DNA of 64,000 bases from Kiritimatiellia bacterium (GCA_050178035.1 JBFXGK010000001.1:128679-192678); one strand, 5' to 3'; positions 7,975-44,855 are shown, counted from the stretch's first letter. Numbers and translations: made by a program. The notes: generated by a model not told the origin, from the letters alone.

Positions 7975-9290
7975 GCACATCTGTCCCAGTATTACCGCCA
8001 CAGCATCAACTGGTTAGAAGAGGGAGGTGTTTCTGGGGAGGCGTCTGCCTGCTGAAAAGCCTGTAAAATGGGCACTTTTTCAAATAGCGAGACACTCAAG
8101 ACCTGTAGAATAATGTAGAGTGAAGCTTCTATTTTCAGCCGCTTCTTTATGATGGCGACCAGCAGATATACTGTGATCGCAATCCAGATTTGAGATTTAA
8201 CCGCATTGGGCGAGGTTCCGTAGAATGACTTGATCCGCAGATTCTGCTTGATCCATTTAAAAAATATTTCGATGTTCCAGCGGCCCTTGAAAAGTTCTGC
8301 AACCGTGAGGGGAGGAAGTGAAAAATTATTGGTAAGGAAAACCAGCGTCCGGTTTTCCTGATCACGATACTTGATGCGCCGGAGATGTTCCGGAAAGTAT
8401 CGGGCTGTCTGTGTACCCGTGAGAATGATGGTCTGATCGCAAAGGATGCCGCAGTCTCTATCGGATGGATGGGAGTAGATACGTTGGAACTGAAGATTGG
8501 ATCGGGCCCGTGTAACAAAATAGGCTTTAAGCGAGTGTAGCAGATAAAGGCGTTTGAAATCCAAATAGGCGCGGTCCATTACATAGTAGGCTCCGGGAAC
8601 CGGCAGGATGTGATCCAATACACTGGCATCACCTCGTTTGCCATCTGTAATCAGTATATATTCCGGGATATTGCCGGATAAGTTGAGAAGGGTATGCATC
8701 TTCACGGCCCCTTTGGTCCGGCAGAAATGAGCCCAAGGAAACATCGAAAGACACAGGTCGATCACCGTTGAGTCCAATGCGTATACATCGGCACCCAAAT
8801 CCGGCATCAGCGGATCATCCGCGTATAATCGTCTGGCCTCAGGAATCAGGACGTGAGCAAAATCAGCGTAGATGCGCCAGTCCCGGGTTTCGTTCGCAAC
8901 AGAAAGATTGTTGCGCGAGACGCGACTGTGAATCCCCAAGTGGTACAGCTTGCCGCTCACAGCCCGCAAACAGGATTCGATGTCCCGCAAACTTTCACGG
9001 CAAGTCAACTGAGCAAAGGCCATCACACGGAACTGCTCAGAGCACCGGAACGTCTTCACCTTGTAATCGCCCTGATAGCGATTCACCAACGTCTGAAATC
9101 GCCACCAGGGCAACTGCTGCATCAGCTGAGAAAATACGGTTGTTCCAGAATACATAAGGTTGATCTCCTCCTCCTGATCAACCTTATAGGAAAAACCAAT
9201 TTCAAGTCGGAAAGGATGTAATATCAACACATCCTTATGATGTAACGTGCGTTATAACTATTTTATGCGAAAACGTTGGGACAGATGTGC
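7975..9290 (-). mobile_element. IS element, IS4-family-like, ~1.3 kb, with terminal inverted repeats and flanking direct repeat
   Basis: Perfect 14-bp inverted repeats gcacatctgtccca (7975-7988) and tgggacagatgtgc (9277-9290); flanking direct repeat cattttt at 7968-7974 and 9291-9297 (7-9 bp depending on exact IR end); one DDE transposase ORF inside. Confidence 0.8.
7992..9155 (-). CDS. DDE transposase (IS4 family-like)
   Basis: ORF 7992..9230; start set to ATG at 9155 (MYSGTTVFSQLMQQLP...). Candidate DDE residues in YALDSTVIDL, YVMDRAYLDF, WNIEIFFKWIKQNLRIK. Confidence 0.85.
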   Translation of the reverse strand: MYSGTTVFSQLMQQLPWWRFQTLVNRYQGDYKVKTFRCSEQFRVMAFAQLTCRESLRDIESCLRAVSGKLYHLGIHSRVSRNNLSVANETRDWRIYADFAHVLIPEARRLYADDPLMPDLGADVYALDSTVIDLCLSMFPWAHFCRTKGAVKMHTLLNLSGNIPEYILITDGKRGDASVLDHILPVPGAYYVMDRAYLDFKRLYLLHSLKAYFVTRARSNLQFQRIYSHPSDRDCGILCDQTIILTGTQTARYFPEHLRRIKYRDQENRTLVFLTNNFSLPPLTVAELFKGRWNIEIFFKWIKQNLRIKSFYGTSPNAVKSQIWIAITVYLLVAIIKKRLKIEASLYIILQVLSVSLFEKVPILQAFQQADASPETPPSSNQLMLWR

Positions 9291-9371: not shown

Positions 9372-10739
<1,368 letters not shown>

Positions 10740-11339: not shown

Positions 11340-12395
11340 TCAGGGGGCCGGGCCTGCAACATTTACGGACGAACAGCATTTCTTCTTCGCGGGTTTGCGG
11401 CCGGACCAGAGGGCGCAGCCCAGCACAGCGGCCAGCGCAGCCGTTGACACCAGCTTCATCCAGTACGGCATCATGGCGTGCGCCATGTGGTCCACATGCA
11501 CATGATCCGGGATGATCACGTTGTCCAGCAGCAGCCCGAAGGCCAGCGCCGAAACGGCGATGGTCGCCAGATAGATCAGAACGGACTTGTTGCCCATCAT
11601 GCTGCGGATGATGGCAATGGTGGCCGCATTGGTGGCGGGGCCGGTCATCAGGAACACAAACGCGGCACCCGGCGTGATGCCCTTCATCATGAACGCCGCC
11701 GCCACGGGCACGGAAGCTGTCGCGCAGACATAGACAGGAATGCCCATCAGCATCATCACCACCATGGACAGGAAGCCGGTGCCCAGATATTCCGCAAAGA
11801 AATCCTCGGGGATCAGCGCGGTGATCAGGGCCGCTACCGCGAGGCCGATCACCATGTCGCGCGCAATGTGCTTCGGGAGGGTGATAAAGCCGTGGCGAAG
11901 CCCGTCCAGAAACCGGTTTCTTTTGTGGTCATGCTTCGCGCAGCAGGGATCTTCGCAGGGCTCAGGCACCTGATCGGGTCCCTTCCCGGATGAAAAATCC
12001 ACCAGCCATCCGCCCAGGATTCCCGTCAGCAGGGCGGCAATGGGACGCACAATCGCAAACACCATTCCCAGCAGGCTGTAGGTTACAAAAATACTGTCCA
12101 CCCCGGTCTGCGGTGTGGAAATGAGGAAAGCGGTGGTGGCACCCCTGCTGGCGCCGTGCTTGCGGAGGGAGGCGGAGACGGGGATCACGCTGCAGCTGCA
12201 CAGCGGAAGCGGCACACCAAAAGCGGAGGCCTTGATCACCGGCCATATGCCGCGGCCGCCCAGATGGCGTTCCACCGTAGAGGCGGAGAGGAACATGGAA
12301 AGAATGCCGGCCACAAAGAATCCAAACAGGAGGTATGGGGACATCTGCACGAGCACGTCCCAGAACGAATTCAAGACAGCCCAAATAGTTTCCAC
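11340..12395 (-). CDS. permease, ArsP/DUF318-like (putative metal or metalloid transporter)
   Basis: 351 aa, polytopic; Cys motif PLPLCSCSVIP reminiscent of ArsP-type permeases. Confidence 0.65.
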   Translation of the reverse strand: METIWAVLNSFWDVLVQMSPYLLFGFFVAGILSMFLSASTVERHLGGRGIWPVIKASAFGVPLPLCSCSVIPVSASLRKHGASRGATTAFLISTPQTGVDSIFVTYSLLGMVFAIVRPIAALLTGILGGWLVDFSSGKGPDQVPEPCEDPCCAKHDHKRNRFLDGLRHGFITLPKHIARDMVIGLAVAALITALIPEDFFAEYLGTGFLSMVVMMLMGIPVYVCATASVPVAAAFMMKGITPGAAFVFLMTGPATNAATIAIIRSMMGNKSVLIYLATIAVSALAFGLLLDNVIIPDHVHVDHMAHAMMPYWMKLVSTAALAAVLGCALWSGRKPAKKKCCSSVNVAGPAP

Positions 12396-12445: not shown

Positions 12446-12925
12446 TCAGAGCACCTCTTTCAGGGCGGATTCGTAGACCGAACGGTGATTGAAACCGCTG
12501 ATCTGGCGGAGCTGGCGGCCGTTCTCATAAATGCGGACATCGGGAATGCCCACTATCCCGGCAGCCTGCGCTTCGGCTGCATGTTTGTCCACATTCACCC
12601 CGACAAAGAGCACGCGGCCGGCATAATCCCCCGCGAGCTTGTCCAGCACCGGCTTGAGGCTCTTGCAGGGTGGACACCAGTCGGCATAGTAATCAACAAG
12701 AACCGCGCGGTTGCTTTGGACAATCCCCGCGATGGTTTCGCCGGGGGCAGGCAGATAAATGTTTTGCGGGGTGCGGGTGCCGATTTCATGCCACGCAATC
12801 AAACCCGCGATCACAGCGCCGATGAAGGCGCCGTTCACGGGGGCCAGATGCAGTCTTTTCACCTTCAGGCACGCAATGAACCCAATCAGTGCCCCAAAGG
12901 CCGCCGTTAAAATCAGGATCAGCAT
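12446..12925 (-). CDS. membrane-anchored thioredoxin-family protein
   Basis: 159 aa; N-terminal TM helices, WCPPC active site. Confidence 0.8.
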   Translation of the reverse strand: MLILILTAAFGALIGFIACLKVKRLHLAPVNGAFIGAVIAGLIAWHEIGTRTPQNIYLPAPGETIAGIVQSNRAVLVDYYADWCPPCKSLKPVLDKLAGDYAGRVLFVGVNVDKHAAEAQAAGIVGIPDVRIYENGRQLRQISGFNHRSVYESALKEVL

Positions 12926-12928: not shown

Positions 12929-13447
12929 TCAGTCCGCTGCGGGAGCGGCCGGCGGGACGAAGACGCGCGCGGCCAGCTCGCGGTCGAGCATGAACAGGCC
13001 CTGCTTGGAATCGCCGGAAATCCGGATCTGGTCAAGGATGCCTGTAGCGTTTTCTTCTTCCTCGATCTGCTCGGTGACAAACCACTGCACAAAGATTTCA
13101 GAGGCATAATCGCCGTCTTCGCGCGAAAGCTTCATCAGGTTGTTGATGCGGGAGGTGACATATTTCTCATGCTCCAGCGTCAGTTCAAAAAGCTCCTTCA
13201 TGGAGGTTCCCTTTAATTCAGGCTTTTCGATCGCTTCCATGACCGGCAGCGCGCCCTGGCTGCAGAGATATTTGAAGAACTTGTCGGCATGAGTCATTTC
13301 TTCCAGAACCTGGACATGGAACCAGTTTGCGCAGCCTTTATAACCCTGGGTTTCCGCCTGGGCGGACATGGCATAATACAAGTAGGCCGAATAGATTTCC
13401 TTGTTGATCTGCTCGTTGATGGCTTTTGCCAGTTTCTTCGATATCAT
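12929..13447 (-). CDS. ferritin (non-haem)
   Basis: 172 aa; ferritin-like four-helix ferroxidase signature (EIYSAYLYYAMS, LEEMTHADKF). Confidence 0.85.
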   Translation of the reverse strand: MISKKLAKAINEQINKEIYSAYLYYAMSAQAETQGYKGCANWFHVQVLEEMTHADKFFKYLCSQGALPVMEAIEKPELKGTSMKELFELTLEHEKYVTSRINNLMKLSREDGDYASEIFVQWFVTEQIEEEENATGILDQIRISGDSKQGLFMLDRELAARVFVPPAAPAAD

Positions 13448-13473: not shown

Positions 13474-13497
13474 GCGGGGGCCGTCATCGGCCCCCGC
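13474..13497 (-). terminator. GC-rich hairpin between dfx and ferritin gene (possible terminator/attenuator)
   Basis: gcgggggccg-tcat-cggcccccgc perfect 10-bp stem; no strong U-tract, so weak as an intrinsic terminator. Confidence 0.35.
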
Positions 13498-13518: not shown

Positions 13519-13896
13519 TCAGGACTTCCAGAGGCCGTGCACGTTGCAATACTCGCGTGCCGATACATTCTTAGCGCTGATGCCTTCAAAAACGGCAACA
13601 GGCTGGTCGCCCGGCTTCAGGAATTTCCGTCCCACTTTGTCATCAAACTGAATTTCGATCCATTCAATATAGTGTTCCGGGAGCATGGGATGAAGCGTGC
13701 TTCCCACGGTGACCTTGTAGCCCGTGGCGGTTTTCTCGATCAAGGGAACATGCTTCTCCTTGGTCTTGTCCGCCGTCTGTTCCACCATGAGCTTCATGGG
13801 TTCGCCGCAGCAAACCAGTTCCCCGTCGCCGGCATGCAGGACGCTGACAATATTACTGCAGGCCGCACATTTATAGATTTCCAGTCGCTTTGTCAT
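13519..13896 (-). CDS. dfx: desulfoferrodoxin (2Fe superoxide reductase)
   Basis: 125 aa; N-terminal desulforedoxin Cys cluster ([10 protein letters not shown]...CCGEPM) plus SOR domain. Confidence 0.9.
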
Positions 13897-13912: not shown

Positions 13913-14485
13913 TTACCAGTTTTCCGCCAACAGTTCGAAATGGGCCTGGGGATGGGCGCAGGCCGCGCAGATATCCGGGGCTTCTTTTCCGGTATGAATA
14001 TATCCGCAGTTCATGCAGCGCCAGACAACCGGTTTGTCTTTTTTGAAAACAGTCTGGGCGTCCACGTTGGCCTTGAGCCCGAGGAAGCGCTTCTCGTGCT
14101 GCTTCTCGGCGACGGCAATGGCTTCAAACACCTTCGCAATTTCGGGGAAACCCTCTTTGCGGGCGGTGTCGGCGTACGAGGGATACATCTCGGTCCACTC
14201 GTAGTGCTCGCCGGCTGCGCCGTGCTCAAGGTTCTCGGAGGTCGAGGCGATTGTTCCGGCCGGGAAGGACGCGGTGATCTCCACCTCGCCGCCCTTGAGA
14301 AACTTGTAAAGACGCTTTGCGTGCTCGCTTTCCTGATCAGCCGTCTCCTCGAAAACCTCGGAGATCTGGCGGAATCCCTCTTTTTTTGCCTTGCCCGCAT
14401 AAAAGGTATAACGGTTCCTTGCCTGCGATTCACCTGCGAATGCGGTCAGCAGATTTTTCTCCGTCTGGCTTCCTTTCAGTTCCAT
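13913..14485 (-). CDS. rbr: rubrerythrin
   Basis: 190 aa; diiron domain ([23 protein letters not shown]) plus C-terminal rubredoxin-like CxxC...CxxC. Confidence 0.95.
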
Positions 14486-14494: not shown

Positions 14495-15643
14495 CTATGA
14501 CAATTTCTGTCCAAGCTGTTTTTCGTATTTTCTGAAATCCGCTGCGGACCCGGCCATTTGGATACCGACGAGTACGCCATCCTTCACCAGAAGGCCGCGG
14601 AAAATTTCAGCACTGTGCTCCAATATTACCGTATGAATCCCATTTGCGCAAGCCGGACCGATTGAATTTACGGCGAAGCCCGCGTGAGAGTAGAATATGG
14701 GCGAATCTGAAGGCTGGTGAGCCGACAGGGCCATTCCCTGCGCCGCCGAAAGCGCGTTGACTGCGGCCACCTTGCCCTGCAGCACGGCCTCCAGCGCGCA
14801 AAAGATATCTACATGGTCCCATTCAGCAATATCTCCGCAGGCAAAGACCGAAGGTGCGGATGCCTGCATCTTCATATCCACCCGTATCCCCTTCCCGCAA
14901 ACGAGCCCCGAGGATTTCGGAAGCGTCACATCGCGGCGCGCGCCCACCGCCAGCACCACCAGGTCCGCTGTCATCACGTCGCCGGACTCCATTATGAGTT
15001 GGAAATCCCCGGCATTCTGCCTGGCAATGGACGACACCGTGGTCCCCAGAAGGATTTTAACGCCCATCGACCGGAGTAAATTCTCGACGACTTCAGACGC
15101 ATCCGTGCACAAGTTGGACAGCATCAAATGCTCCAGGCGCTCCACCAGCACCACGTCCAGACCGGCAAGTGCTCCGCGATGCGCCACTTCCACCCCCAGA
15201 ATTCCGCCCCCGATCACCACCAACTTCCTGCCGGGAGCCAGCGTCCCGCGGATGTCTTCGGCATGCTCTATGTGCCATAGCGGATGAATATGTTTCCGCG
15301 CGGAATGCGCGAACGGCGGTATGGCTGGACCGGATCCGATGGAAAATATAATAGCATCATACGACTCTGTTCCCCGTCCGGATGTCAGGGTTCGCGCAGC
15401 TGAATCACAGGCCGTGACCGGAGTGTCCAGCCGCAAATCGATTTTGCGCGACGCATACCACGCCAAGTCATGCATCGTGATGTCCTCCAGCGAGGACTGC
15501 GCAAAAGCGTACCCGACCAGCTTGGGGCGGTAATACGGCAAGACCTTTTCCGCCGAATACAAATGGACTTCCGCTCCCTGCGCGGCGGCCGTTTCGGCCG
15601 CCTTCACGCCCGCATGGCCCGCGCCAATGATTCCCAGCTTCAC
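14495..15643 (-). CDS. NAD(P)H:rubredoxin oxidoreductase-like FAD-dependent pyridine nucleotide-disulfide oxidoreductase
   Basis: ORF 14495..15709; two Rossmann motifs (LGIIGAGHAG, LVVIGGGILGVE). Start set to GTG at 15643 (VKLGIIGAG), overlapping the PtsI-like stop (GTGA). Confidence 0.75.
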   Translation of the reverse strand: MKLGIIGAGHAGVKAAETAAAQGAEVHLYSAEKVLPYYRPKLVGYAFAQSSLEDITMHDLAWYASRKIDLRLDTPVTACDSAARTLTSGRGTESYDAIIFSIGSGPAIPPFAHSARKHIHPLWHIEHAEDIRGTLAPGRKLVVIGGGILGVEVAHRGALAGLDVVLVERLEHLMLSNLCTDASEVVENLLRSMGVKILLGTTVSSIARQNAGDFQLIMESGDVMTADLVVLAVGARRDVTLPKSSGLVCGKGIRVDMKMQASAPSVFACGDIAEWDHVDIFCALEAVLQGKVAAVNALSAAQGMALSAHQPSDSPIFYSHAGFAVNSIGPACANGIHTVILEHSAEIFRGLLVKDGVLVGIQMAGSAADFRKYEKQLGQKLS

Positions 15644-17253
15644 GAAACCGCCGCCTTTCGGACCGCGGGTATTGCGCGCGGGCTGCAGCTCACGGATTTT
15701 ATGCCGCATTCCATCAGTTTCCTGACCATCACCGGATCACTCGCCAGTTCGCCGCATACGGACAGCGACCGCCGGTGTTTTTCGGCGGCCGCTGCGATTC
15801 CGCGCAGCACCTGCCAGAACACCGGATGGTCAGAGGTGTATTCGTCAGTCACCAGCTCATTGCCGCGGTCCACCGCAAAAAGATATTGAGTAAGATCATT
15901 CGTGCCGATACTGGCAAATTGAGCCTCGGCCAGAATGGCATCCGCCTGAAGGGCGGCCGACGGGACTTCAAACATCACCCCGAATTCAATGCTGCCGGTT
16001 TTAATGTCCTCCACCATTTCTTTGAACATGTCGCGCAAGCGCCGGAATTGCGCAACATCAACGATCATGGGGAACATCACACGAACAGGGCCCTTCAGCG
16101 ATGCGCGTGCAATGGCACGCGCCTGATCACGAAACAGGTTCGGATGGCGGATCAGCAAACGGCTGCCGCGCAGGCCCAATGCGGGGTTTTCCTCCTTCGG
16201 AATCCTCATTGCCGGCAACGGCTTGTCTCCTCCGGCATCGAGCATCCGGAATGTGGTCACACGGCCTTCCATGGCCTCGACCACAGGCGCATAACGCGTA
16301 TACTGCGCTTCTTCAGACAGCAATTCGCCTGCGGATATGAATTCGAATTCCGTCCGGTAAAGTCCAATGCCCTCTGCCTTCATTTCGCGGGCTTCGGACA
16401 CTTCCCGGCCCAGTGTGATGTTGGCCATCACCTGAAGTTGCGGGACGGTGTCAACGGCTCCGTCACGGCGCGCCCTTCCCGCCTCGCAAGAGCAGGCGGC
16501 AATTGTTCTTTCATCCGGAGAAATGATCACTTCACCGGTGTCTCCATTCACAATCAGCTCTGTGCCGCAAGCAACGGTGCTGTGAATGTTCTTGATGCCG
16601 CTGACCGCGGGAATGCCCAGCGCGCGCGCAAGGATCGCAGCATGCGAGTTGACACCGCCATGTTCGGTGACAAATGCCAGAACCTCCCCGGTGTTCAAAC
16701 TGACGGTAAGGCTGGGCGTCAGCTCTTCGGCAATGACAATGCGGTTTTTGCCCCGGCGGCAGCGGCCGGCGCAACTGAACCCCGGTGCGGTATTGGACAG
16801 GTTGTCCAGCAGGCGGCGGCGAATCTCACCGATGTCAGACGCCCGCTCGCGAATGTACTCGTTGTCGAGAGCGCCCAGTTTCGTCTCATAGGCATCGAGC
16901 ACCGTATGAATCGCATTTTCAGCGTTGCGCAGGGCGGAACGGATGTGTTCGCGCAGCTGCTTAAGGATCATTGGATCCTCGACAATCATTTTCTGCGCAA
17001 CAAAAATGCCGGCCTCGGCCTGGCCCATCCGGTTTTCCACATGCGCGCGGATATTTTCAAGCTGCTGGGCTGTGGCTTCCACGGCATCTTCCATACGCTT
17101 GACTTCATCGTTGAGCTGTGCGGGTTCAATGGCGTAGTCGGGAACCTCCTGATGACGGTGATCATCAAAAAGGCAAACGCGGCCAAGGGCCACTCCTTTG
17201 CTCAGAGAAAGGCCTTGAACGCGTTTTTCAGCAGTTTTGTTTCCAGTGGCCAA
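15640..17253 (-). CDS. ptsI: phosphoenolpyruvate--protein phosphotransferase (PTS Enzyme I-like)
   Basis: 537 aa; EI motifs: catalytic His region GGVNSHAAILARALGIPAV, IGTNDLTQYLFAVDR, CGELASDP; N-terminal domain aligns with EI. Confidence 0.85.
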   Translation of the reverse strand: MATGNKTAEKRVQGLSLSKGVALGRVCLFDDHRHQEVPDYAIEPAQLNDEVKRMEDAVEATAQQLENIRAHVENRMGQAEAGIFVAQKMIVEDPMILKQLREHIRSALRNAENAIHTVLDAYETKLGALDNEYIRERASDIGEIRRRLLDNLSNTAPGFSCAGRCRRGKNRIVIAEELTPSLTVSLNTGEVLAFVTEHGGVNSHAAILARALGIPAVSGIKNIHSTVACGTELIVNGDTGEVIISPDERTIAACSCEAGRARRDGAVDTVPQLQVMANITLGREVSEAREMKAEGIGLYRTEFEFISAGELLSEEAQYTRYAPVVEAMEGRVTTFRMLDAGGDKPLPAMRIPKEENPALGLRGSRLLIRHPNLFRDQARAIARASLKGPVRVMFPMIVDVAQFRRLRDMFKEMVEDIKTGSIEFGVMFEVPSAALQADAILAEAQFASIGTNDLTQYLFAVDRGNELVTDEYTSDHPVFWQVLRGIAAAAEKHRRSLSVCGELASDPVMVRKLMECGIKSVSCSPRAIPAVRKAAVS

Positions 17254-17264: not shown

Positions 17265-17426
17265 CTATGCGACAGGCTCAAAGTCGCTTTTGGGAACACC
17301 GCATTCAGGACAAACCCAGCTGTCGGGAATGTCGGCAAAAGCGGTTCCGGGAGCAATCCCGTTGTCCGGATCTCCGACGGCGGGGTCATAAACGTATCCG
17401 CAGACGGTGCAAACATATTTCTGCAT
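17265..17426 (-). CDS. rubredoxin
   Basis: Not in ORF track (53 aa). Own translation: [53 protein letters not shown]; canonical CxxCG...WxCPxCG rubredoxin. Confidence 0.85.
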
Positions 17427-17431: not shown

Positions 17432-18640
17432 TCACTCCTGTTTGATCTGTTTACAGATTTCCAATGCCTGATCTGCAAGCATACTACCGGCTTCCCGGCA
17501 AAGCGCAAGATCATCTGCCCGCGGCACATATTGGACCTGGATGGGCTCGCGGAGAATCCGGACTTTCATATCCTCAAGATATTCATTCACCTCCTGTGCC
17601 CCGCCCTTCGCCCAGCCATACGATCCGAATGCGAATCCCGCCTTGCCGGCGGGCTTCAAGCCCTTGAGATACGTCAGCACGGCTGCCGCCTGCGGCATCA
17701 GCGTTCCGTTCAGCGTCGGCGACCCGAAAGCAAATGTTGCCGCATCCAGCATCTCCGTGGCCAGCGTGGTGGTGTTGCTTGCCCGGATGTAGAACAGCTT
17801 GGCGTCAACTCCGGGCTTTGCGGCGCCTTCCAGGATGGCGTGCGCCATTTTCTCGGTGCTTTTCCACATGGTGTCATAAATGACCAGCACCTTGGGCTTC
17901 GGTTTGCAGACCATCCATTCGCTGTAGGCCTGCATGATTTCCTTTACATGCCTGCGCCAAATCACCCCGTGGCTGGGGGCAATCATTTCGACGTCCAGCC
18001 CACCCACCCCGCTCAGCACGCGAGCGATGGGTTTGCTGTAGAGCATCAGGATGTTTGCATAGTATGTCTTTGCCTCGAACATGACCGTGTTCAGCGGTTC
18101 CTCATCGTCAAAGCGTCCGGATGAGGCATAATGCTGGCCGAAGCCATCCATCGAGAAAAGAATCTTTTCCTCCGGCACATAGGTGGCCATGGATTCCGGC
18201 CAGTGCGCCATCGGCGTTTCCACAAAGACCAGCGTCCGCTTGCCCAGGGAGAGTTTGTCTCCGTCTTTAACAATCTTGAACTTCCAGCCGGTGATGTCGT
18301 GATGAAGCGCAAGAGCCTTCTGGCATTTGTCATCACAGACAATCTCCGCCTGCGGACAGGCGGCCACAACTTCCGGAAGAGAACCGGCATGATCCAGCTC
18401 GGCGTGATTGCAGACAATGTAATCAATCTTCCGAAGATCAATCAGCCTGCGGACATTGTCCAGCAGCTGTTTGCCAAAACCGGCCTTGACGGTGTCAATC
18501 AGCGCGTTCTTGCCGTCACGCACCAGATAGGCGTTATAGGTGGATCCGCGACGGGTTTCGTATCCATGAAAATCGCGGACATTCCAGTCCACGTATCCCA
18601 CCCAGTCAATGTTGTTCCGCAGGCTCGTGTTCATATGCAA
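17432..18640 (-). CDS. flavodiiron protein (FprA / rubredoxin:oxygen or NO oxidoreductase)
   Basis: 402 aa; metallo-beta-lactamase-like diiron domain ([14 protein letters not shown]) plus C-terminal flavodoxin domain. Confidence 0.9.
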
Positions 18641-18703: not shown

Positions 18704-19045
18704 TCACGTCGCCGGCTGGCGAATCATGATCAGCAGCATTTTGAACTGCTTTTCCGCCCAGAGAGAATGCGGAACATTTGCCGGCATGATCACCAATTGC
18801 CCGGCCCGGGCAGTCAGCGGATTTCCGCCGATGTTGATAACCACCTCGCCGTCCAGAATCTGAACAGCCGCATCATACGGTGATGTGTGCTCGCTGAGCC
18901 CCTGCCCCGCATCAAAGGCAAACAGGGTCAATGAGCCCACGTCTTTGTTCATCAGAGTCTTGCTGACGACCGAACCGGAGGCATAGGCGACCTCTTGAAC
19001 AAGTTCAAGGGGCCGCCCTTTGTAGTCTTCGCTGCCCATGATCAC
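18704..19045 (-). CDS. cupin domain protein
   Basis: 113 aa; cupin motifs (GLSEHTSPYDAAVQILDGEV ... PANVPHSL). Confidence 0.65.
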   Translation of the reverse strand: MIMGSEDYKGRPLELVQEVAYASGSVVSKTLMNKDVGSLTLFAFDAGQGLSEHTSPYDAAVQILDGEVVINIGGNPLTARAGQLVIMPANVPHSLWAEKQFKMLLIMIRQPAT

Positions 19046-19410
19046 TCCGCGGGCGCGACAGGCGCTTCCGCCTCAGGGGCCTTTGAAACGCAGCCCGCTT
19101 TTTCCATCATCGGGCATCCGGCCTTGCCTTCAGCCTTCATGCTTTTGCAGCAGGCCATGCAACCAGGCGATCCCGCATGCTTTCCGCACTTCGGGCATAC
19201 CGCGGCGCCTTCTTTGCAGCACAGTTCCGAACCCGCAACCTGGCCGCATTTCCCGCACAGCGCGGGCGCAGCTTCCTCCGATGTCGAAGAGGCCTTCATT
19301 TCTGCTGCCGGTTCAACCGCCGCAGCGGCCTTCGCCGCGCAGCAGGGCCCGGCAAAGGAAACCGATGAAACGGCCAGCACCATTAAAATAACCATTATTC
19401 CGACTTTCAT
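19042..19410 (-). CDS. secreted cysteine-rich small protein (hypothetical, putative metal-binding)
   Basis: ORF 19042..19545; start set to ATG at 19410 (MKVGIMVILMVLAVSSVSFA signal peptide). Mature part has 14 Cys in CC and CxxC arrangements. Confidence 0.5.
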   Translation of the reverse strand: MKVGIMVILMVLAVSSVSFAGPCCAAKAAAAVEPAAEMKASSTSEEAAPALCGKCGQVAGSELCCKEGAAVCPKCGKHAGSPGCMACCKSMKAEGKAGCPMMEKAGCVSKAPEAEAPVAPAE

Positions 19411-19466: not shown

Positions 19467-20249
19467 TCAAATGGCCTTGATCGAAAGAATGTCGCCGGTG
19501 AGACTCATGACCGCTTCTTCCACCACCAAATCCTCCCGCCCGCATCTTTCAGCGGCAGCGCGAACCATCATGGTCAGTCCACCGCAGCAGGGAACCTGCA
19601 TTCTGACGACAATGACTTTGGGGATGGACGGCTCAGCAAATATATCGGCCATTTTTTCCACATAGCCGTCTGTACGATCCAGCTTTGGGCAGGCTACAAC
19701 CAAGCCCCTGCCCCGCAGAAAACGCCAGTGCACGTCAGCCGAGGCGATTGGTCCGCAGGTGCTCATCACCACCAGCTCGCGGTTCTTGAAGAACGGCGCA
19801 CCCGCCTGCACCAGATGCAGCTGCACAGGCCACTGCTGAAGCTCCGACGGAATCGCCGTGGGCATCTGCGCGTGGGTCGCCACCGCCGGCTTTGCGGCGG
19901 GAGCATCCGGCACACGCATGCGTGTGCCGGGACATCCCCCGCCCGACGGGGCCAGGCCATGCTTTTTCCCCGCCTCGTCGAACTTCACAACCGCCGCCGC
20001 GCCCTGAGTCTCCGCCACATGCATGCGCGTGGCATTGAAGTCAAAACCATCCGCCTCGCGCTCTTCAATGGTCAGCGCGCCGGTCCGGCATTCACCGATG
20101 CAGTCTCCGAAACCATCGCAGAACTGCTCCTTGACCAGTTTTGCCTTGCCGTTGACGATCTTCAGCGCGCCCTCTGCGCAGGATGTGACGCATTCGCCGC
20201 ATCCGTTGCAGAGGTCTTCATTGATCCTGATGATCTTGCGCTTTGCCAT
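19467..20249 (-). CDS. 4Fe-4S dicluster domain-containing protein
   Basis: 260 aa; N-terminal CNGCGECVTSCAEGAL and CDGFGDCIGECRTGAL ferredoxin motifs; further Cys pairs C-terminally; directly downstream of hcp. Confidence 0.7.
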   Translation of the reverse strand: MAKRKIIRINEDLCNGCGECVTSCAEGALKIVNGKAKLVKEQFCDGFGDCIGECRTGALTIEEREADGFDFNATRMHVAETQGAAAVVKFDEAGKKHGLAPSGGGCPGTRMRVPDAPAAKPAVATHAQMPTAIPSELQQWPVQLHLVQAGAPFFKNRELVVMSTCGPIASADVHWRFLRGRGLVVACPKLDRTDGYVEKMADIFAEPSIPKVIVVRMQVPCCGGLTMMVRAAAERCGREDLVVEEAVMSLTGDILSIKAI

Positions 20250-20250: not shown

Positions 20251-21900
20251 TCACTTCCCGGCCATCATGGCCGCGACATCGGCCTGCACTTCGCCAGTCG
20301 GTTTGATGTCGAAGTTCTCAACCAGCACTTTGGCGACAGCGGGCGAAAGGAACGCCGGAAGCGTCGGCCCCAGGCGGATGCCTTTCACCCCCAGATGCAG
20401 CAGCGCCAGCAGCACCGCAACGGCCTTCTGCTCGTACCAGGCGATGTCGAACGAAAGCGGAAGGTCATTGATGGAGGCCAGACCGAACGCCTCCTTCAGC
20501 TTCAGGGCGATGACCGCCAGCGAGTAGCTGTCGTTGCACTGCCCAGCATCCAGCACGCGCGGAATGCCGCCGATGTCGCCGAGGTTCAGCTTGTTGTAAC
20601 GGTACTTCGCGCAGCCCGCGGTCAGGATGATCGTGTCCTTTGGCAGAGCCTCGGCTACTTCTGTGAAGTAGCTGCGGTTTTTGTGACGACCATCGCATCC
20701 GGCCATCACCACAAAGCGCTTGATCGCACCGGACTTGACAGCCTCCACCACCTTGCCGGCCACGGCCATGACCTGATTGTGTGCGAAACCACCGACGATT
20801 TCGCCGTTTTCAATCTCCTGCGGCGGCGGACACTTCTTCGCCTGCTCGATGATCGCGGAGAAATCCTTCTGCTTGCCCGGTTTGCGGTCGGGGATGTGCT
20901 TTGCGCCCGGCCAGCCGGCCATGCCCGTGGTGTAAAAACGGTTGAGATAAGAATCCTTCACCGGAATGATGCAGTTGGTCGTCAGCAGGATCGGCCCGTT
21001 GAACGAGGCGAATTCCTTGTCCTGAAGCCACCAGCTCCCGCCGTAGTTGCCGGCCAGGTGCTTGTATTTCTTGAAGGCCGGATAGTAATGGCACGGAAGC
21101 ATTTCTCCGTGGGTATAGACATCCACCCCCGTGCCCTCTGTCTGCTGCAGCAGTTCGTCCATGTCCTTCAGGTCGTGGCCCGAAATCAGAATGCCCGGAT
21201 TTTTGCGGACGCCGGTGGCAACTTTTGTGATTTCCGGATTGCCATAGGTCTCGGTATTGGCTTTGTCGAGCAGCGCCATGGTCGTTACGGCAATTTCGCC
21301 CGCCTTCAGGACCATGCCCACCATTTGATCAACACTGAGTTTCTGAGTGGTCGAGATCAGACCATCAACCACAAACCGGTAGATGGCGTCATCCTCATAG
21401 CCGAGAACAAGCGCGTGATCAGCGTAGGCCGCGATGCCCTTCAGGCCAATGATCAGAAGCTGCTGGAGCGACCGCACGTCCTCGTTCGGCTCGGACGGGA
21501 TGCCGACCAGAAGCGCCTTGACCTGCAGATCCTCGCCCTTCTTCGGAGCCCATGTCGCCGCGTCGGGCAGACTTTTCGCCCAGGCGGCGTCCTTCTTCTC
21601 GCACTGCTTGCGAATGGCGTCGCGCTGCGCAACAGCCTCATGGATCAGGCGGCTGATGACTGCATCGTCAAAGTTGGCATTGGTGATTGTGGAAAAAAGA
21701 CCGCGGATAATGGTCTGTCCGACTGCGCGGTCATACAGGCCCAGTTCATCGGCTTTCTTGCCGGCAATGGCCAGTCCTTTCAGAGAATGGATCAGAAGAT
21801 CCATCAGATTTGCCGTGGGCTCCTGTTTTCCGCAAACGCCCCGGACGGTGCATCCCTGATTCTTCGCGGTCTCCTGACACTGGAAGCAGAACATACTCAT
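20251..21900 (-). CDS. hcp: hybrid cluster protein / hydroxylamine reductase
   Basis: 549 aa; N-terminal [11 protein letters not shown]...CTVRGVCGK Cys cluster and full-length Hcp architecture. Confidence 0.95.
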
Positions 21901-22370
21901 GATTTTCCCTTTCCTTTTTTTGGTTGTTTATAAATTTCAGCCAGCGTTGTTTTCTCAAAGAAAGCGTTCAGGCGGTTTTGAAGAATGCAGACGGACCCCT
22001 TCATCGGGCATTTCCCGCTGTAGGGACAGGGCTGCCCCTTGCGGTTGCAGACATTCATATAGACCGGCCCCTGCACGGCCTCGACAATCCGTGCGAGGCT
22101 GATCTTCCGGGTCGGAAGGGCCAGCAGATATCCCCCGCGCTTTCCGCGCACGGTTTTCACGACTCCGGCTTTTGCGAGCGTCTGCATGATCTTGCGGAGG
22201 GCGGGCAGCGGCACTTTGCAGTCCTTCGCCAGTTCAAGCGTGTCGGTGCGGGTGCACCGCCGGTCCAGCACATGCAGTGCCCGGAGCGCGTAATCGGTCT
22301 CTCTTCTGAGTATTTCCATAAGCCATCCTTTAAATGCGACCAATTTAGTCCTATTTAACTCCCGCGTCAA
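21897..22370 (-). CDS. Rrf2-family transcriptional regulator (NsrR/IscR-like)
   Basis: 157 aa; [10 protein letters not shown]...GGYLLALP wHTH signature; C-terminal Cys residues; 4-nt overlap with hcp start. Confidence 0.85.
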
Positions 22371-22389: not shown

Positions 22390-22761
22390 TCAGGAAGTCT
22401 TTTTCGGCCAGGCCTTGAGGACGGCCATCACCTCTCGGACCCAGGTGCAAACGCACTTGACGGGACATCGGCCGTCCTGACCCAGATGGGAGCAGTAACC
22501 CGGACAGTCCGGTCCCCGGTAGGCACACGTCTGCCACACAGGTCCGTCGTAAAGGTTCCGGAAGTCTTCCACCGCCAGGGCAAGCGTGGTCGTGCATTCG
22601 GTCACATGGTTGAAAAGGAAATATCCCAACCGTTCCTCTTCAAAAAAAGGCTGATAGCCAAGAAATTCGACCGATGGATCTGACAGGAATGAATCCCGGT
22701 CCTTCCATGCCGTGCCGCAGGTCGTGCAGCGCTTGTAGATATGTACGCTCTCTTCTTTCAC
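22390..22761 (-). CDS. cysteine-rich hypothetical protein
   Basis: 123 aa; CTTCG, CAYRGPDCPGYCSH, CPVKCVC motifs; first gene of the hcp operon; no family recognised. Confidence 0.45.
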   Translation of the reverse strand: MKEESVHIYKRCTTCGTAWKDRDSFLSDPSVEFLGYQPFFEEERLGYFLFNHVTECTTTLALAVEDFRNLYDGPVWQTCAYRGPDCPGYCSHLGQDGRCPVKCVCTWVREVMAVLKAWPKKTS

Positions 22762-24330: not shown

Positions 24331-24540
24331 TCATTTGTTACAGCAGGAACCGGCGGATTTCAGACCCATTTTTTTGAAGATCATCTCCGCGGGGCAGAAA
24401 CCCGTAAAGGCGGACTGGATCAAATTGACGCCCACAAAGCAGGCCAGCAACAGCCACCATTGATTCACAAAATGCGCCAGCGCCACACTCACCAGCACAA
24501 GCGTTCCCGCTAGAATACGAATTGCATTTTCAACTGTCAT
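24331..24540 (-). CDS. DUF2892-like small inner-membrane protein (YgaP-like TM domain)
   Basis: 69 aa; two hydrophobic helices and C-terminal FTGFCP motif. Confidence 0.5.
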   Translation of the reverse strand: MTVENAIRILAGTLVLVSVALAHFVNQWWLLLACFVGVNLIQSAFTGFCPAEMIFKKMGLKSAGSCCNK

Positions 24541-24555
24541 GGTTTCTCTCCTGAT

Positions 24556-25815
24556 TTAGAAACTGTAGCGGGCGGAGGCATACACGTTATTGTTGTCCTC
24601 AAATTGCCCGAAGAACGTATAATCCTCGCTGCCCATAAAGACATTCCCGCCAAGCGTGAACTTCCAGTCATCTGTCGCCTTGTACGAAACCGACGGGCGC
24701 AAATAGGCATCCTCGTCCGAGGGCGAATAGAAGGCGAAGAATGACAGCATCAGGTTCTGGTTGAGAAGCTGCTGCGTGAGCCGCAGGGTCAGCACATGGC
24801 GGTCCTCATCCGCCGCATTCATTCCCACTGGCAGAGTCTCTTCGTAAGCATCGTAATCCGCCATCAGTTCCAAATAATATTGAACCGCAAGGGTTAAATC
24901 CTGCATCAGTTCCTGCTGGTATCCGGCCATCAGGCGGGTTTCGCTGTTGCGGATCATAGGGTCATCCCCGTCACAGTCATCGCGCGAGTCATAATAGCCC
25001 GCCTCCAGGTTCGCGATGCCCTTCATGAACTGACCGCGCAGGCTTGCGCCGTACACGCCCAGCTCAGGGAATATCGCGCGGCCGGTCGCCATGTCGGAAC
25101 CTGCCGGACTCTTCCAGAATCCCTCATGGCCATAAACCGCAAGTTCATAACCTTTCACATTGCGTGATACACGGACGCTGATTTCATCGTCCTCGAACCA
25201 TTCATCGGGAATGTCGGCCTCCACAACGGCATCCTGTCCCGATCGCGCGCCGAGCCCGGCGTTCCAGAAGGAAATGCGGTCGCCGGAAATATAACGGTCG
25301 TGATCAAAACGCGGCGTGTAGACCACATCAATGTTCGCCCACGACGGGAACAGGCTCAGCTTCAGCGCATCAGACGGGGCCTTCAAATATTCCTCGTCGC
25401 GACCGATGAAAAATGAATTCCAATCTTTTGGGAACATGTCGTTGATGAACAGCAGGTCGCCCGTGCCCCAGGTCAGGATCTGGCGGCCGGCCTTCAGGTC
25501 CGCCCAGCTCACCGGCGATGCCGAAACATTGGCCTCGCGCAGGTCGATGGCCCCCTCGCCCGTTTCCAGGTCAATGTCATGCTCGTCCAGAACCCAGTCA
25601 TAGAGGAAATCCGACCGTAACTGGAGCGTCAGCGGACCCGCATACTCCAGAACGTCAAGCTGCAGGCGCAGTTCTCCAAGGCTTTCTTTCTCCTGGTTCG
25701 GATCAGTCTGCGTCCGCACGCCCGCGCGCACATCGGCAAAGCCATGCAGATCAACTGCCCGCGCAGCCCCGGCGGCGAGCATGAAGACGGTGAGAAAAAC
25801 AAGCGATCTTTTCAT
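24556..25815 (-). CDS. putative outer-membrane beta-barrel protein
   Basis: 419 aa; signal peptide MKRSLVFLTVFMLAAGAARA, alternating amphipathic strands, C-terminal aromatic YSF. Confidence 0.65.
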   Translation of the reverse strand: MKRSLVFLTVFMLAAGAARAVDLHGFADVRAGVRTQTDPNQEKESLGELRLQLDVLEYAGPLTLQLRSDFLYDWVLDEHDIDLETGEGAIDLREANVSASPVSWADLKAGRQILTWGTGDLLFINDMFPKDWNSFFIGRDEEYLKAPSDALKLSLFPSWANIDVVYTPRFDHDRYISGDRISFWNAGLGARSGQDAVVEADIPDEWFEDDEISVRVSRNVKGYELAVYGHEGFWKSPAGSDMATGRAIFPELGVYGASLRGQFMKGIANLEAGYYDSRDDCDGDDPMIRNSETRLMAGYQQELMQDLTLAVQYYLELMADYDAYEETLPVGMNAADEDRHVLTLRLTQQLLNQNLMLSFFAFYSPSDEDAYLRPSVSYKATDDWKFTLGGNVFMGSEDYTFFGQFEDNNNVYASARYSF

Positions 25816-25823
25816 TTCACTCC

Positions 25824-26612
25824 TCAGCGGGTGGCTTCACGCGGCGGACGTTTCAAAAAGCGCTCGGAGAAAATGGCGTCGTTCAGTCCAATATCGTACT
25901 TCACGCCGCTGAACGCATTGACGGTTTTACCGCCAGTGTTCAGGTCGCTGACCACCGATTCCATGACCGTCGGATACCCCTGAATGGTCTCAACCTTCGT
26001 GCCCTCGACGCGGCGGTAGAGTTTGCCGTTCTTGTCGTAATACTCGGCTTTGCGCGGAAGGAATGTGTCCCGATCAATCCAGACATTGTAAAAGGAAAAC
26101 TCCACTGATCCGGGATCTTTGGGAGTGTTCTTGATCTGGTACTGGCCGCCCTCAGAGGAGACCAGTTCATGCTCATCCGCATTCAGGTTGCGGCCGGATA
26201 CATCCTCGTACACGAAATCCGAACCGACAAAGCTCGTGCGCTTGTCGCCGGGAGCGATGCGGCGGACCAGATCCAGCGCCGGCAGATACATCCATCGGTC
26301 ATCATCCTGCCCCTCGCCCACTTTCTTCCAGACCAGATACACCATGCGGCGCACATCGGCGGGTTCATTGAAATAGACATAGAACTTCTGATTCTTGTCC
26401 TCCGTGTTCAGGCGCAGGATGCGGAACTCGCGGACACGTTCGCCGCCTTTGGCGTCGGTGATCGACATCTTCACATCCGCCTGTCCGTCTTTGCCCGCGT
26501 AATACGCGGCATCATTGGCCTTCGTGATGATTTCATCAACGGTCAAATCAGCGGCAGAAGCAATACCAGCAAATGCAATTATGAATAATGCAGCAAGATA
26601 TATGGTCTTCAT
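25824..26612 (-). CDS. LolA-like outer-membrane lipoprotein-sorting family protein
   Basis: 262 aa; signal peptide; domain family usually paired with MMPL transporters. Confidence 0.55.
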   Translation of the reverse strand: MKTIYLAALFIIAFAGIASAADLTVDEIITKANDAAYYAGKDGQADVKMSITDAKGGERVREFRILRLNTEDKNQKFYVYFNEPADVRRMVYLVWKKVGEGQDDDRWMYLPALDLVRRIAPGDKRTSFVGSDFVYEDVSGRNLNADEHELVSSEGGQYQIKNTPKDPGSVEFSFYNVWIDRDTFLPRKAEYYDKNGKLYRRVEGTKVETIQGYPTVMESVVSDLNTGGKTVNAFSGVKYDIGLNDAIFSERFLKRPPREATR

Positions 26613-26624
26613 ATCAGTCTCCTC

Positions 26625-44422: not shown

Positions 44423-44510
44423 GCCTGCATACTAAACAGCGGCTGGACGCCTGAACAGGGAATAATAAGTCCGAAATTGAATCGCCGCGCGGATTATGTA
44501 TATTCATTGC

Positions 44511-44744: not shown

Positions 44745-44747
44745 AAC

Positions 44748-44793: not shown

Positions 44794-44855
44794 CTTTTAC
44801 AAAGGCCTGCCTCCTTGCATAAATTCTTTCATTTGTTAAAGTCGGCCATTCTTGT

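What the first reader, a model, noticed from the sequence alone, without database searches (positions are those of the whole stretch)
15640..17253. Orphan PTS Enzyme I-like gene embedded between rubredoxin and NROR genes
A full-length EI homologue (His-domain and PEP-binding motifs intact) sits inside the redox island, with its stop overlapping the NROR start (GTGA). No HPr or Enzyme II genes are visible in 64 kb. This suggests a regulatory or non-sugar phosphorelay role, or PEP-dependent phosphorylation linked to the redox stress response.
Basis: partly seen in the sequence, partly recalled or inferred. Interest (0 to 1): 0.5.

Follow-up and report, generated by a model that had tools for sequence, protein, structure and literature searches.

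The report
Four-cysteine Enzyme I in oxygen-stress operon
A genuine PTS Enzyme I gene sits, translationally coupled, inside an oxygen/nitric-oxide defence operon of an uncultured anaerobe. It belongs to a large, apparently undescribed Enzyme I subfamily with four invariant extra cysteines that is repeatedly found in such stress operons and never next to its usual partner HPr.

Summary
ORF 15640-17253 (-) encodes a full-length, selectively constrained PTS Enzyme I (EI): TIGR01417 scores above its cutoff, all catalytic residues are present, and the model has the EI fold. It is not PEP synthase, PPDK or PtsP.

The gene lies 11 nt after rubredoxin, and its TGA overlaps the GTG start of NROR. It sits in a 14-gene same-strand cluster of a Kiritimatiellia MAG, headed by an Fe-S-type Rrf2 regulator. 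No PTS partner was found in the 64 kb.

Two new findings:
- **Extra cysteines.** This EI carries four cysteines (C27, C161, C165, C229) in the phospho-histidine domain. They are invariant in 119 of its 120 closest homologues and absent from every solved EI. A sister group replaces C229 with an extra linker cysteine, which suggests a metal site.
- **Recurrent context.** This subfamily is repeatedly embedded in O2/NO-stress operons in Kiritimatiellota, Lentisphaerota and Omnitrophota. In an unselected metagenome sample, 11/25 loci had such neighbours against 0/18 for EIs without the cysteines.

Best reading: this is the EI of a regulatory, transport-less PTS that is coupled to oxidative and nitrosative stress. 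Whether the cysteine site acts as a sensor or is simply an oxidant-labile site is unresolved. Whether HPr is encoded elsewhere in the genome could not be tested.

The parts
15640..17253 (-). ptsI: PTS Enzyme I, 537 aa, of the four-cysteine ('class A') subfamily
   Evidence: Pfam N, mobile and C domains. TIGR01417 424 bits, above the 341.7 cutoff. Aligns to PDB EI structures at E 1e-86 to 1e-88. AF2 model with pLDDT 82 whose best Foldseek hits are full-length EI. dN/dS 0.08-0.12.
16642..16644 (-). Codon of the catalytic phospho-histidine H204 (GGVNSH; equals E. coli H189)
17173..17175 (-). Codon of C27, the first of four subfamily-invariant cysteines (E. coli has L17)
   Evidence: 120/120 top homologues. 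Co-occurs with the other three cysteines.
16759..16773 (-). C161-AGR-C165 motif in the linker that re-enters the His domain (C-x3-6-C across the subfamily)
   Evidence: C161 in 120/120 and C165 in 119/120 homologues. The linker is expanded to 3-4 Cys in the sister class B.
16567..16569 (-). Codon of C229 (C-G-T motif; E. coli has N214), the fourth invariant cysteine
   Evidence: 120/120 homologues. Lost exactly where an extra linker Cys appears.
15754..15756 (-). Codon of C500, the catalytic cysteine of the PEP-binding domain (equals E. coli C502)
15640..15643 (-). GTGA overlap: EI stop TGA overlaps NROR start GTG, indicating translational coupling
   Evidence: The overlap is conserved in L002-L006 and L008.
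14495..15643 (-). NADH:rubredoxin oxidoreductase-like flavoprotein (NROR), 382 aa
   Evidence: Pyr_redox_2 at 7e-51; related to NorW and ferredoxin reductase families.
17265..17426 (-). Rubredoxin, 53 aa
   Evidence: PF00301 at 6e-26.
17432..18634 (-). Flavodiiron protein (ROO/FprA), an O2/NO reductase
   Evidence: ODP/Lactamase_B plus Flavodoxin_1 domains.
18704..19039 (-). Cupin_2 protein, 111 aa
19042..19410 (-). Cys-rich 122-aa protein with an N-terminal hydrophobic segment and no Pfam family
19467..20249 (-). Ferredoxin-like 4Fe-4S protein (Fer4 plus AF_0155 domains), encoded directly downstream of HCP
20251..21900 (-). Hybrid cluster protein (HCP/Prismane)
   Evidence: 93% identical in L002.
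21897..22319 (-). Rrf2-family regulator with a C-x6-C-x5-C Fe-S-type motif, heading the cluster. The likely true start is the ATG at 22319.
22338..22370 (-). Promoter-like TTGACG-17-TAAATT overlapping a unique AT-rich site, AAATAGGACTAAATTGGTC, which is a candidate Rrf2 operator
   Evidence: A related palindromic site lies at the same place in L002.
13913..14485 (-). Rubrerythrin
13519..13896 (-). Desulfoferrodoxin (superoxide reductase)
13474..13497 (-). G+C hairpin with a 10-bp stem after dfx. It is a possible terminator or attenuator, though its T-tract is weak.
12929..13447 (-). Ferritin
12446..12925 (-). Membrane-anchored thioredoxin
11340..12395 (-). ArsP_1-family permease, the last gene on the same strand

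Best explanation
The gene encodes a catalytically competent PTS Enzyme I. EI autophosphorylates on H204 from PEP in the C-terminal barrel and passes the phosphoryl group on through its N-terminal HPr-binding subdomain.

It is most likely the cell's general EI, serving a transport-less, regulatory PTS of the kind inferred for Kiritimatiella. It is co-transcribed and translationally coupled with rubredoxin and NROR, inside an operon for O2, ROS and NO detoxification headed by an Fe-S-type Rrf2 regulator.

It belongs to a distinct EI subfamily whose phospho-histidine (swivel) domain carries four invariant cysteines, which most likely ligate a metal: Zn, Fe or an Fe-S cluster. This subfamily has been recruited again and again into stress operons containing Rrf2, HCP, FprA, Rd, Rbr or Dfx, and once into a copper-efflux operon. 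I therefore infer that the PEP-dependent phosphorelay in these anaerobes is induced by oxidative or nitrosative stress, and that its activity is probably modulated by that stress through the cysteine site.

**Shown:**
- identity, integrity and constraint of the EI
- operon anatomy
- the cysteine signature and its co-variation
- the recurrent genomic association
- the lack of adjacent HPr

**Inferred:**
- metal binding
- sensitivity to redox, NO or copper
- a regulatory rather than transport output
- an HPr encoded elsewhere
For: **Identity.**. Purifying selection: dN/dS 0.08-0.12.

**Operon.** The gaps are 11 nt (Rd-EI), -4 nt (EI-NROR) and 9 nt (NROR-Rbr). The only promoter-like site at the head of the cluster lies just upstream of the Rrf2 ATG, and there is a hairpin after dfx.

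**Deep conservation of gene order.**
- HCP-ROO-Rd-EI-NROR-Rbr-Dfx-Ftn is kept in L029, although its EI is only 53% identical and its NROR 39%.
- Lentisphaerota locus L013 has ROO-EI-Rbr-Dfx-Rd-DsbD.
- Kiritimatiellia and Victivallales loci have EI-Rbr-DsbD.
- Omnitrophota have Rrf2-EI-(hemerythrin)-HCP-rSAM-NadA-IlvD-FprA-nitroreductase.
- A Verrucomicrobia locus has EI overlapping the end of a copper-efflux operon.

**Unselected metagenome sample.** Stress genes lie within 3 kb in 11/25 four-cysteine EI loci, against 0/18 Cys-less EI loci below 40% identity (Fisher p = 0.001). HPr is adjacent in 0/25 against 3/18 in that sample. Over all loci held, HPr is adjacent in 0/70 Cys-bearing loci against 14/30 Cys-less loci.

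**Cysteine site.**
- C27, C161 and C229 are present in 120/120 close homologues and C165 in 119/120. All four are absent from every EI with a solved structure.
- Among 50%-identity cluster representatives, the four cysteines co-occur in 10. In 8 others C229 is absent while the linker has 3-4 Cys. In 82 there are none. This pattern of ligand replacement is typical of metal sites.

**Literature.** The only cultured Kiritimatiellae is described as having a 'rudimentary PTS' proposed to sense PEP/pyruvate for regulation (PMC5148204).
Against: - About half of the four-cysteine EI loci with adequate flanks sit in unrelated housekeeping contexts. The stress linkage is therefore frequent but not obligatory.
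- Class B (cysteine-rich linker) shows no stress neighbours in 0/10 loci.
- No coordinates were available, so it is untested whether the four cysteines meet in space. The AF2 confidence of loop 154-170 is low.
- A purely structural Zn site would explain the conservation without any sensing role.
- Part of the contrast with Cys-less EIs may reflect an anaerobe versus aerobe lifestyle. Chance adjacency should nevertheless be only a few percent.
- HPr, EII genes and possible EI paralogues in the rest of the genome could not be examined.
Confidence: 0.55

Rival explanations
1. This is a conventional EI of an ordinary sugar PTS whose HPr and EII genes lie elsewhere. Its place between rd and nror would then be a neutral accident of gene order with no functional meaning.
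For: All canonical EI features are present. ptsI is unlinked from ptsH in many bacteria (general knowledge). About half of related EI loci have unrelated neighbours. The rest of the genome was not readable.
Against: The association recurs in at least 10 different gene arrangements across three phyla. It is 11/25 against 0/18 in an unselected sample. Rd-EI-NROR order is retained even at 39-53% protein identity, and translational coupling is conserved. No EII or HPr lies beside any of about 70 Cys-bearing EI loci.
Confidence: 0.15
2. 'Replenished victim': the cysteine site holds an oxidant-, NO- or copper-labile Fe-S or Fe centre that EI needs for activity. On this view ptsI sits in Rrf2/IscR-type stress operons so that damaged EI is replaced, as for the Fe-S enzymes NadA and IlvD in the Omnitrophota operons. 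EI would not be a sensor.
For: In Omnitrophota, EI shares an Rrf2-headed operon with HCP, a radical-SAM protein, NadA and IlvD, which are all Fe-S proteins. In Verrucomicrobia it ends a copper-efflux operon, and copper's main targets are exposed Fe-S clusters (general knowledge). The window's Rrf2 has the three-Cys Fe-S motif.
Against: There is no evidence on which metal, if any, is bound. The window operon otherwise contains detoxification proteins rather than biosynthetic Fe-S enzymes. This reading overlaps heavily with the best explanation and differs only in purpose.
Confidence: 0.2
3. EI acts as a PEP-dependent kinase on a non-HPr target encoded in the island (for example NROR, Rd or the small Cys-rich proteins). 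It would then control the O2-reducing electron chain directly.
For: EI is translationally coupled to NROR. No HPr was found near any class A EI. Fusions of EI to other domains exist (LMWPc in P0050, Pterin_4a in P0064/L031).
Against: The HPr-binding alpha-subdomain is intact and conserved: PEP-utilisers_N scores 5e-27, and I83/F84/M89/D93 correspond to E. coli I72/F73/M78/D82. The neighbouring genes differ between lineages (NROR, Rbr, HCP, DsbD, ROO), so there is no constant candidate substrate. No precedent is known to me.
Confidence: 0.05
4. The gene is not an EI but a PEP synthase, a pyruvate phosphate dikinase or a PtsP (EI-Ntr).
For: The mobile and PEP-binding domains it shares with those enzymes give partial HMM hits.
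Against: PEP synthase and PPDK models match only the C-terminal part, and score 132-187 bits against cutoffs of 598-843. There is no ATP-grasp domain. There is no GAF domain, and the PtsP model scores 316 against a cutoff of 583. The TIGR01417 EI model passes its cutoff. The best structural matches are full-length EI.
Confidence: 0.01

Closest known systems
PTS Enzyme I (PtsI) of E. coli, Staphylococcus and Thermoanaerobacter (PDB 2HWG, 2KX9, 2WQD, 2HRO, 2XZ7)
   Same: It has the same three-domain architecture and fold. It also has the same catalytic His, the same catalytic Cys and the same PEP/Mg-binding residues, and it conserves the motifs of the HPr-binding helices.
   Different: It is only 31-34% identical to the solved EIs in structure-based alignments. 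It scores below the cutoff of the enterobacterial PtsI equivalog model (372 against 824). It carries four extra invariant cysteines in the His domain that no solved EI has. It is about 40 residues shorter at the C-terminus. It is never next to ptsH or crr, and is instead embedded in stress operons.
EI-Ntr (PtsP) of the nitrogen/regulatory PTS
   Same: It is probably used for regulation rather than sugar transport. Its gene is unlinked from the phosphocarrier gene. An extra sensory element may be attached to the EI core.
   Different: It has no N-terminal GAF domain, and the PtsP model scores below its cutoff. The putative sensory element here is a Cys4 site inside the His domain. The signal would be redox, NO or metal stress rather than glutamine/2-oxoglutarate.
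'Rudimentary PTS' proposed for Kiritimatiella glycovorans (Spring et al. 2016, PMC5148204)
   Same: It comes from the same class of bacteria. That PTS is proposed to be a PEP/pyruvate-sensing regulatory phosphorelay without sugar translocation.
   Different: The main text of that paper does not link the system to oxidative stress or mention a cysteine motif. Its supplement was not available. Whether the K. glycovorans EI has the four cysteines was not checked.
Rubredoxin-dependent O2/ROS detoxification operons of anaerobes (rd-roo of Desulfovibrio; the PerR regulon nror-rd-fprA-dfx-rbr of Clostridium acetobutylicum), cited from general knowledge
   Same: It has the same set of proteins: NROR, Rd, FprA/ROO, Dfx and Rbr, plus HCP under an Rrf2/NsrR-like regulator.
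   Different: As far as I know, none of the described operons contains a PTS gene. Literature searches found no report.

Membership tests
PTS Enzyme I (PtsI; TIGR01417 / PF05524+PF00391+PF02896) | Three-domain architecture: N-terminal HPr-binding domain, mobile phospho-His domain and C-terminal PEP-binding barrel | tested here: met
   Pfam hits 13-137, 170-240 and 267-535, all far above their cutoffs. Fold search returns full-length EI structures.
PTS Enzyme I (PtsI; TIGR01417 / PF05524+PF00391+PF02896) | Score above the curated family cutoff | tested here: met
   TIGR01417 scores 424.2 against 341.7. It is below the narrower E. coli-type equivalog NF008382 (372 against 824), so it is an EI but not of the enterobacterial orthologue group.
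PTS Enzyme I (PtsI; TIGR01417 / PF05524+PF00391+PF02896) | Catalytic His (Ec H189), catalytic Cys (Ec C502) and PEP/Mg ligands (Ec R296, R332, K340, E431, N454, D455) | tested here: met
   H204, C500, R300, R336, K344, E429, N452 and D453 are present, and they are invariant in a 50-sequence alignment.
PTS Enzyme I (PtsI; TIGR01417 / PF05524+PF00391+PF02896) | A cognate HPr (and EII proteins) in the same genome | not testable with these tools
   None is present in the 64-kb window or within 10 kb of about 70 related loci. The remaining genome (NCBI contig of 461 kb) could not be fetched.
PTS Enzyme I (PtsI; TIGR01417 / PF05524+PF00391+PF02896) | PEP-dependent autophosphorylation and phosphotransfer to HPr | not testable with these tools
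   This needs biochemistry.
EI-Ntr (PtsP) | N-terminal GAF sensory domain | tested here: not met
   No GAF hit. The protein starts directly with the EI N-domain. NF008283 scores 316 against a cutoff of 583 and matches only profile positions 166-700.
PEP synthase / pyruvate phosphate dikinase | N-terminal ATP-grasp nucleotide-binding domain, and a score above the family cutoff | tested here: not met
   Only the C-terminal part matches. Scores are 132-187 bits against cutoffs of 598-843.
Cys4 metal-binding site (structural Zn, rubredoxin-like Fe or Fe-S) | Four conserved Cys ligands that co-vary as a set | tested here: met
   Three of the four cysteines are present in 120/120 close homologues and C165 in 119/120. 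Among representatives the pattern is all four (10), or C27 plus 3-4 linker Cys without C229 (8), or none (82).
Cys4 metal-binding site (structural Zn, rubredoxin-like Fe or Fe-S) | The four sulfurs converge in three dimensions, and a metal is present | not testable with these tools
   The AF2 output gives no coordinates, and loop 154-170 has pLDDT of about 58. No EI with this motif has a solved structure.
Rrf2-controlled O2/NO-stress operon | Same-strand genes with short or overlapping junctions, behind a promoter and an Rrf2 gene with Fe-S ligands, and conserved in relatives | tested here: met
   Junctions from ROO through Dfx range from -4 to +16 nt. A promoter-like site and a unique AT-rich site lie upstream of Rrf2. 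Rrf2 has C-x6-C-x5-C. Synteny is conserved.
Rrf2-controlled O2/NO-stress operon | Co-transcription and stress induction | not testable with these tools
   This needs transcript data.

The most novel reading that the evidence does not exclude
The four-cysteine site in the swivelling phospho-histidine domain is a redox-, NO- or copper-labile Fe(Cys)4 or Fe-S centre, possibly poised by the co-encoded rubredoxin/NROR couple. It gates PEP-to-HPr phosphotransfer. The PTS phosphorelay of Kiritimatiellota, Lentisphaerota, Omnitrophota and relatives would then be a direct sensor of oxygen and oxidants, an input never described for Enzyme I.
Probability: 0.25. Interest if true: 0.85.

Novelty: new variant of a known kind. 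Interest (0 to 1): 0.62.

Why it matters
Enzyme I is the entry point of one of the best-studied bacterial signalling and transport systems. Its known inputs are the PEP/pyruvate ratio, 2-oxoglutarate and, in EI-Ntr, glutamine.

A widespread EI subfamily in uncultured anaerobes appears to differ in three ways. It carries a probable metal-thiolate site in the catalytic swivel domain. It is never linked to HPr. It is repeatedly wired into operons for oxygen, nitric-oxide and copper stress. Together these would add a redox or metal-stress input to the PTS.

It would also give a concrete handle on what the 'rudimentary' PTS of PVC-group and Omnitrophota bacteria is for. In addition, it flags an unrecognised member of the rubredoxin/flavodiiron oxygen-defence regulon of anaerobes.

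The hypothesis is directly testable with one recombinant protein.

Tried and rejected
1. **PEP synthase, PPDK or PtsP assignment.** Rejected by the HMM cutoffs and the domain architecture.
2. **Desulfovibrio origin.** I guessed this from the gene content, and it is wrong. The identical protein is annotated as coming from a Kiritimatiellia MAG.
3. **HPr, NPr, PtsN or Crr in the window or next to related EIs.** None was found by tblastn or by a purpose-built HPr HMM. The positive controls worked.
4. **Finding the rest of the genome.** The genome-contig scan did not contain this species, and the closest locus is 75% identical. The exact-protein look-up returned only a 9.8-kb Logan contig. A genome-wide PTS inventory was therefore impossible.
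5. **Named, cultured organisms carrying the four-cysteine EI.** The cluster look-up gave only metagenome and MAG entries.
6. **Literature on EI with Zn, Fe-S or cysteine motifs, or on ptsI in rubrerythrin, HCP or Rrf2 operons.** Nothing relevant was found. The supplement of PMC5148204 is not held.
7. **Three-dimensional test of the Cys4 site.** The AF2 job returns no coordinates, so this was not possible.
8. **A second copy of the Rrf2-proximal AT-rich site inside the cluster,** for example upstream of roo or ftn. None was found.
9. **Stress-gene neighbours of class B (Cys-rich linker) EIs.** None in 13 loci.
Full report
**1. The observation**

The minus-strand ORF 15640-17253 encodes 537 aa. 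Its TTG start is preceded by GAGG and lies 11 nt after the rubredoxin stop. Its TGA stop overlaps the GTG start of the next gene as GTGA. An independent gene call on an identical public contig gives the same 537-aa product and a 382-aa NROR that starts at that GTG.

Pfam finds the three Enzyme I (EI) domains, and NCBIfam TIGR01417 scores 424 bits against a cutoff of 341.7. PEP synthase, PPDK and PtsP models match only in part and fall far below their cutoffs.

Alignment with E. coli and staphylococcal EI shows that these residues are all present:
- the phospho-histidine H204, in GGVNSH
- the catalytic cysteine C500
- the PEP/Mg ligands R300, R336, K344, E429 and N452/D453

An AlphaFold2 model (pLDDT 82) is most similar to full-length EI structures. 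dN/dS against relatives is 0.08-0.12. So this is a real, constrained EI.

**2. Organism and operon**

The identical protein is annotated as coming from a Kiritimatiellia MAG, not from a sulfate reducer. The gene is one of 14 on the same strand, in this order:

Rrf2 - HCP - ferredoxin-like protein - Cys-rich 122-aa protein - cupin - flavodiiron ROO/FprA - rubredoxin - EI - NROR - rubrerythrin - desulfoferrodoxin - ferritin - thioredoxin - ArsP-type permease

The junctions are mostly -4 to +16 nt. The Rrf2 protein has a C-x6-C-x5-C Fe-S-type motif. A promoter-like site and a unique AT-rich site lie directly upstream of it, and a G+C hairpin follows dfx.

No PTS partner is present in the 64 kb:
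- tblastn with HPr, NPr, PtsN and Crr found nothing.
- An HPr HMM run over all six-frame ORFs found nothing.
- Pfam scans of 40 further predicted genes found no PTS family.

The same HPr/PtsN searches find NPr and PtsN beside EI in every gammaproteobacterial locus fetched, so they do work.

**3. The placement is not an accident**

Relatives with 86% and 75% identical EI keep Rd-EI-NROR with the 4-bp overlap. A 926-kb metagenome contig keeps HCP-ROO-Rd-EI-NROR-Rbr-Dfx-Ftn although its EI is 53% identical and its NROR only 39%.

Other lineages pair EI with different stress genes:

| Lineage | Arrangement |
|---|---|
| Lentisphaerota (L013) | thioredoxin-like DUF255 - ROO - EI - Rbr - Dfx - Rd - DsbD |
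| Kiritimatiellia and Victivallales | EI - Rbr - DsbD |
| Kiritimatiellia (L009) | MsrAB, divergent from EI |
| Omnitrophota | Rrf2 - EI - (hemerythrin) - HCP - radical SAM - NadA - IlvD - FprA - nitroreductase |
| Verrucomicrobia | EI overlapping the end of a copper-efflux operon |

I then took an unselected sample of 80 metagenome loci and classified them by cysteine pattern. Stress genes lie within 3 kb in 11 of 25 loci of this EI type with adequate flanks. The figure is 0 of 18 for Cys-less EIs below 40% identity (Fisher p = 0.001) and 0 of 10 for a sister type. HPr is adjacent to none of about 70 Cys-bearing EI loci but to 14 of 30 Cys-less ones.

The partners change while EI stays. That pattern argues for selection on co-regulation rather than inherited synteny. 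About half of the loci do sit in unrelated contexts, so the link is frequent but not obligatory.

**4.

Four cysteines lie in the N-terminal alpha/beta (phospho-histidine, swivel) domain: C27, C161, C165 and C229. All four are present in 119 of the 120 closest homologues (at least 51% identity); one homologue has Gly at C165. They persist in representatives down to about 40% identity. E. coli EI has L17, a non-aligned linker and N214 at these places, and no EI with a solved structure has the cysteines.

A sister group lacks C229 but has one or two additional cysteines in the linker (C-x2-C...C-x4-C-[RQ]-L-G-N-D-H). Among the 50%-identity cluster representatives:
- 10 have all four cysteines
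- 8 have C27 plus 3-4 linker cysteines and no C229
- 82 have none

This all-or-none co-occurrence with ligand replacement is what metal sites show. I therefore infer a Zn, Fe or Fe-S site. Its geometry could not be tested because the structure tool returns no coordinates, and the loop 154-170 is modelled with low confidence.

The window clade has four further clade-specific cysteines: C254, C256, C516 and C523.

Cluster look-ups gave only metagenome and MAG sources. Literature searches found no description of such an EI, or of ptsI in these operons.

**5. How it most likely works**

- **Shown:** a competent EI, operonic with the rubredoxin-dependent O2/NO defence genes under an Fe-S-type Rrf2.
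- **Shown:** membership of a Cys4 subfamily that is repeatedly recruited to such operons and is not linked to HPr.
- **Inferred:** it is the general EI of a regulatory PTS like the 'rudimentary PTS' proposed for Kiritimatiella glycovorans (PMC5148204), with HPr encoded elsewhere.
- **Inferred:** its amount rises with the stress regulon.
- **Inferred:** the Cys4 site makes its activity depend on redox, NO or metal status.

Two versions cannot be separated here. In one, the site is a sensor that gates phosphotransfer. In the other, it is an oxidant- or copper-labile centre, and the enzyme is co-induced so that it can be replaced. The second version is suggested by its company with the Fe-S enzymes NadA and IlvD and with a copper-efflux operon.

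A neutral-accident reading is disfavoured by section 3. A direct kinase role on island proteins has no constant candidate substrate, and the HPr-binding helices are conserved.

**6. Comparison and novelty**

By every sequence and fold criterion tested, this is a member of the EI family. It is not PtsP, because it has no GAF domain, and it is not a dikinase. It differs from characterised EIs in three ways: the Cys4 signature, a shorter C-terminus and its genomic wiring. I rate it a new variant of a known kind.

The main limits are:
- no genome-wide PTS inventory
- no three-dimensional or chemical evidence for the metal site
- a possible lifestyle confound in the neighbourhood statistics

Noticed in passing
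window 7992-9230 (-): IS4-type transposase (DUF4372 plus DDE_Tnp_1) with a much lower coding-potential score than its neighbours. It lies between dapA and enolase and is probably a recent insertion.
   Followed up: partly
window 9453-10739 (+): Enolase, the enzyme that makes PEP, lies about 5 kb from the EI gene on the opposite strand. It is not part of the operon.
   Followed up: no
window 19042-19410 (-): A 122-aa protein with an N-terminal hydrophobic segment and many CxxC/CC motifs, and no Pfam family. It is conserved inside the island between the ferredoxin-like gene and the cupin (also in L002 and L006).
   Followed up: partly
window 22390-22761 (-); L002 5760-6131; L013 18930-19289: A 123-aa protein with an N-terminal C-x2-C and no Pfam family. 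It is conserved directly upstream of the Rrf2 gene, and a similar ORF lies near the island in a Lentisphaerota locus.
   Followed up: partly
window 24331-29603 (-): An MMPL/RND-like transporter, a TP_0789/LolA-like protein, a DUF1302-like outer-membrane protein and a YgaP-like protein. The cluster is syntenic with the island in the 75%-identity relative (L002).
   Followed up: partly
window 44496-48970 (+): ThiS-like protein, indolepyruvate:ferredoxin oxidoreductase (IorA/IorB), phenylacetate-CoA ligase-like enzyme and an ACT-pair protein. This is an aromatic 2-oxoacid fermentation module.
   Followed up: partly
window 51793-58701: An FdrA-like CoA-ligase protein with AllG and AllH (oxamate carbamoyltransferase subunits) next to glutamate dehydrogenase. 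A malonate-decarboxylase-alpha-like protein and a CN-hydrolase follow.
   Followed up: partly
P0050 (707 aa); P0064 and L031 2314-4311 (665 aa): Natural fusions of the four-cysteine EI to a low-molecular-weight phosphatase/ArsC-like domain (PF01451) and to a Pterin_4a domain (PF01329).
   Followed up: no
L013 3561-5300: A sigma-54 activator with an N-terminal LMWPc/ArsC-like domain and a PAS domain lies a few kb upstream of the ROO-EI cluster. L021 3189-4985 starts with the same LMWPc-type motif but was not scanned. It is the same domain that is fused to EI in P0050.
   Followed up: partly
L021 12543-17984: A four-gene block (421, 192, 913 and 287 aa) is inserted between EI and the downstream dfx/ferritin/rubredoxin genes. 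The related locus L033 has no such block.
   Followed up: no
L007 11696-15612: In another Kiritimatiellae MAG the four-cysteine EI is followed directly by nqrB-F-like genes (Na+-NQR/RNF-type). Spring et al. proposed that the PTS there signals to pH and sodium homeostasis.
   Followed up: no
L060, L062, L063: EIs about 45% identical to the window EI have lost the cysteines but still lie next to ferritin or IlvD.
   Followed up: no
window EI residues 254, 256, 516, 523: Four additional cysteines (a C-S-C motif in the inter-domain linker and two in the last barrel helices) occur only in the window clade (P0001-P0005).
   Followed up: partly
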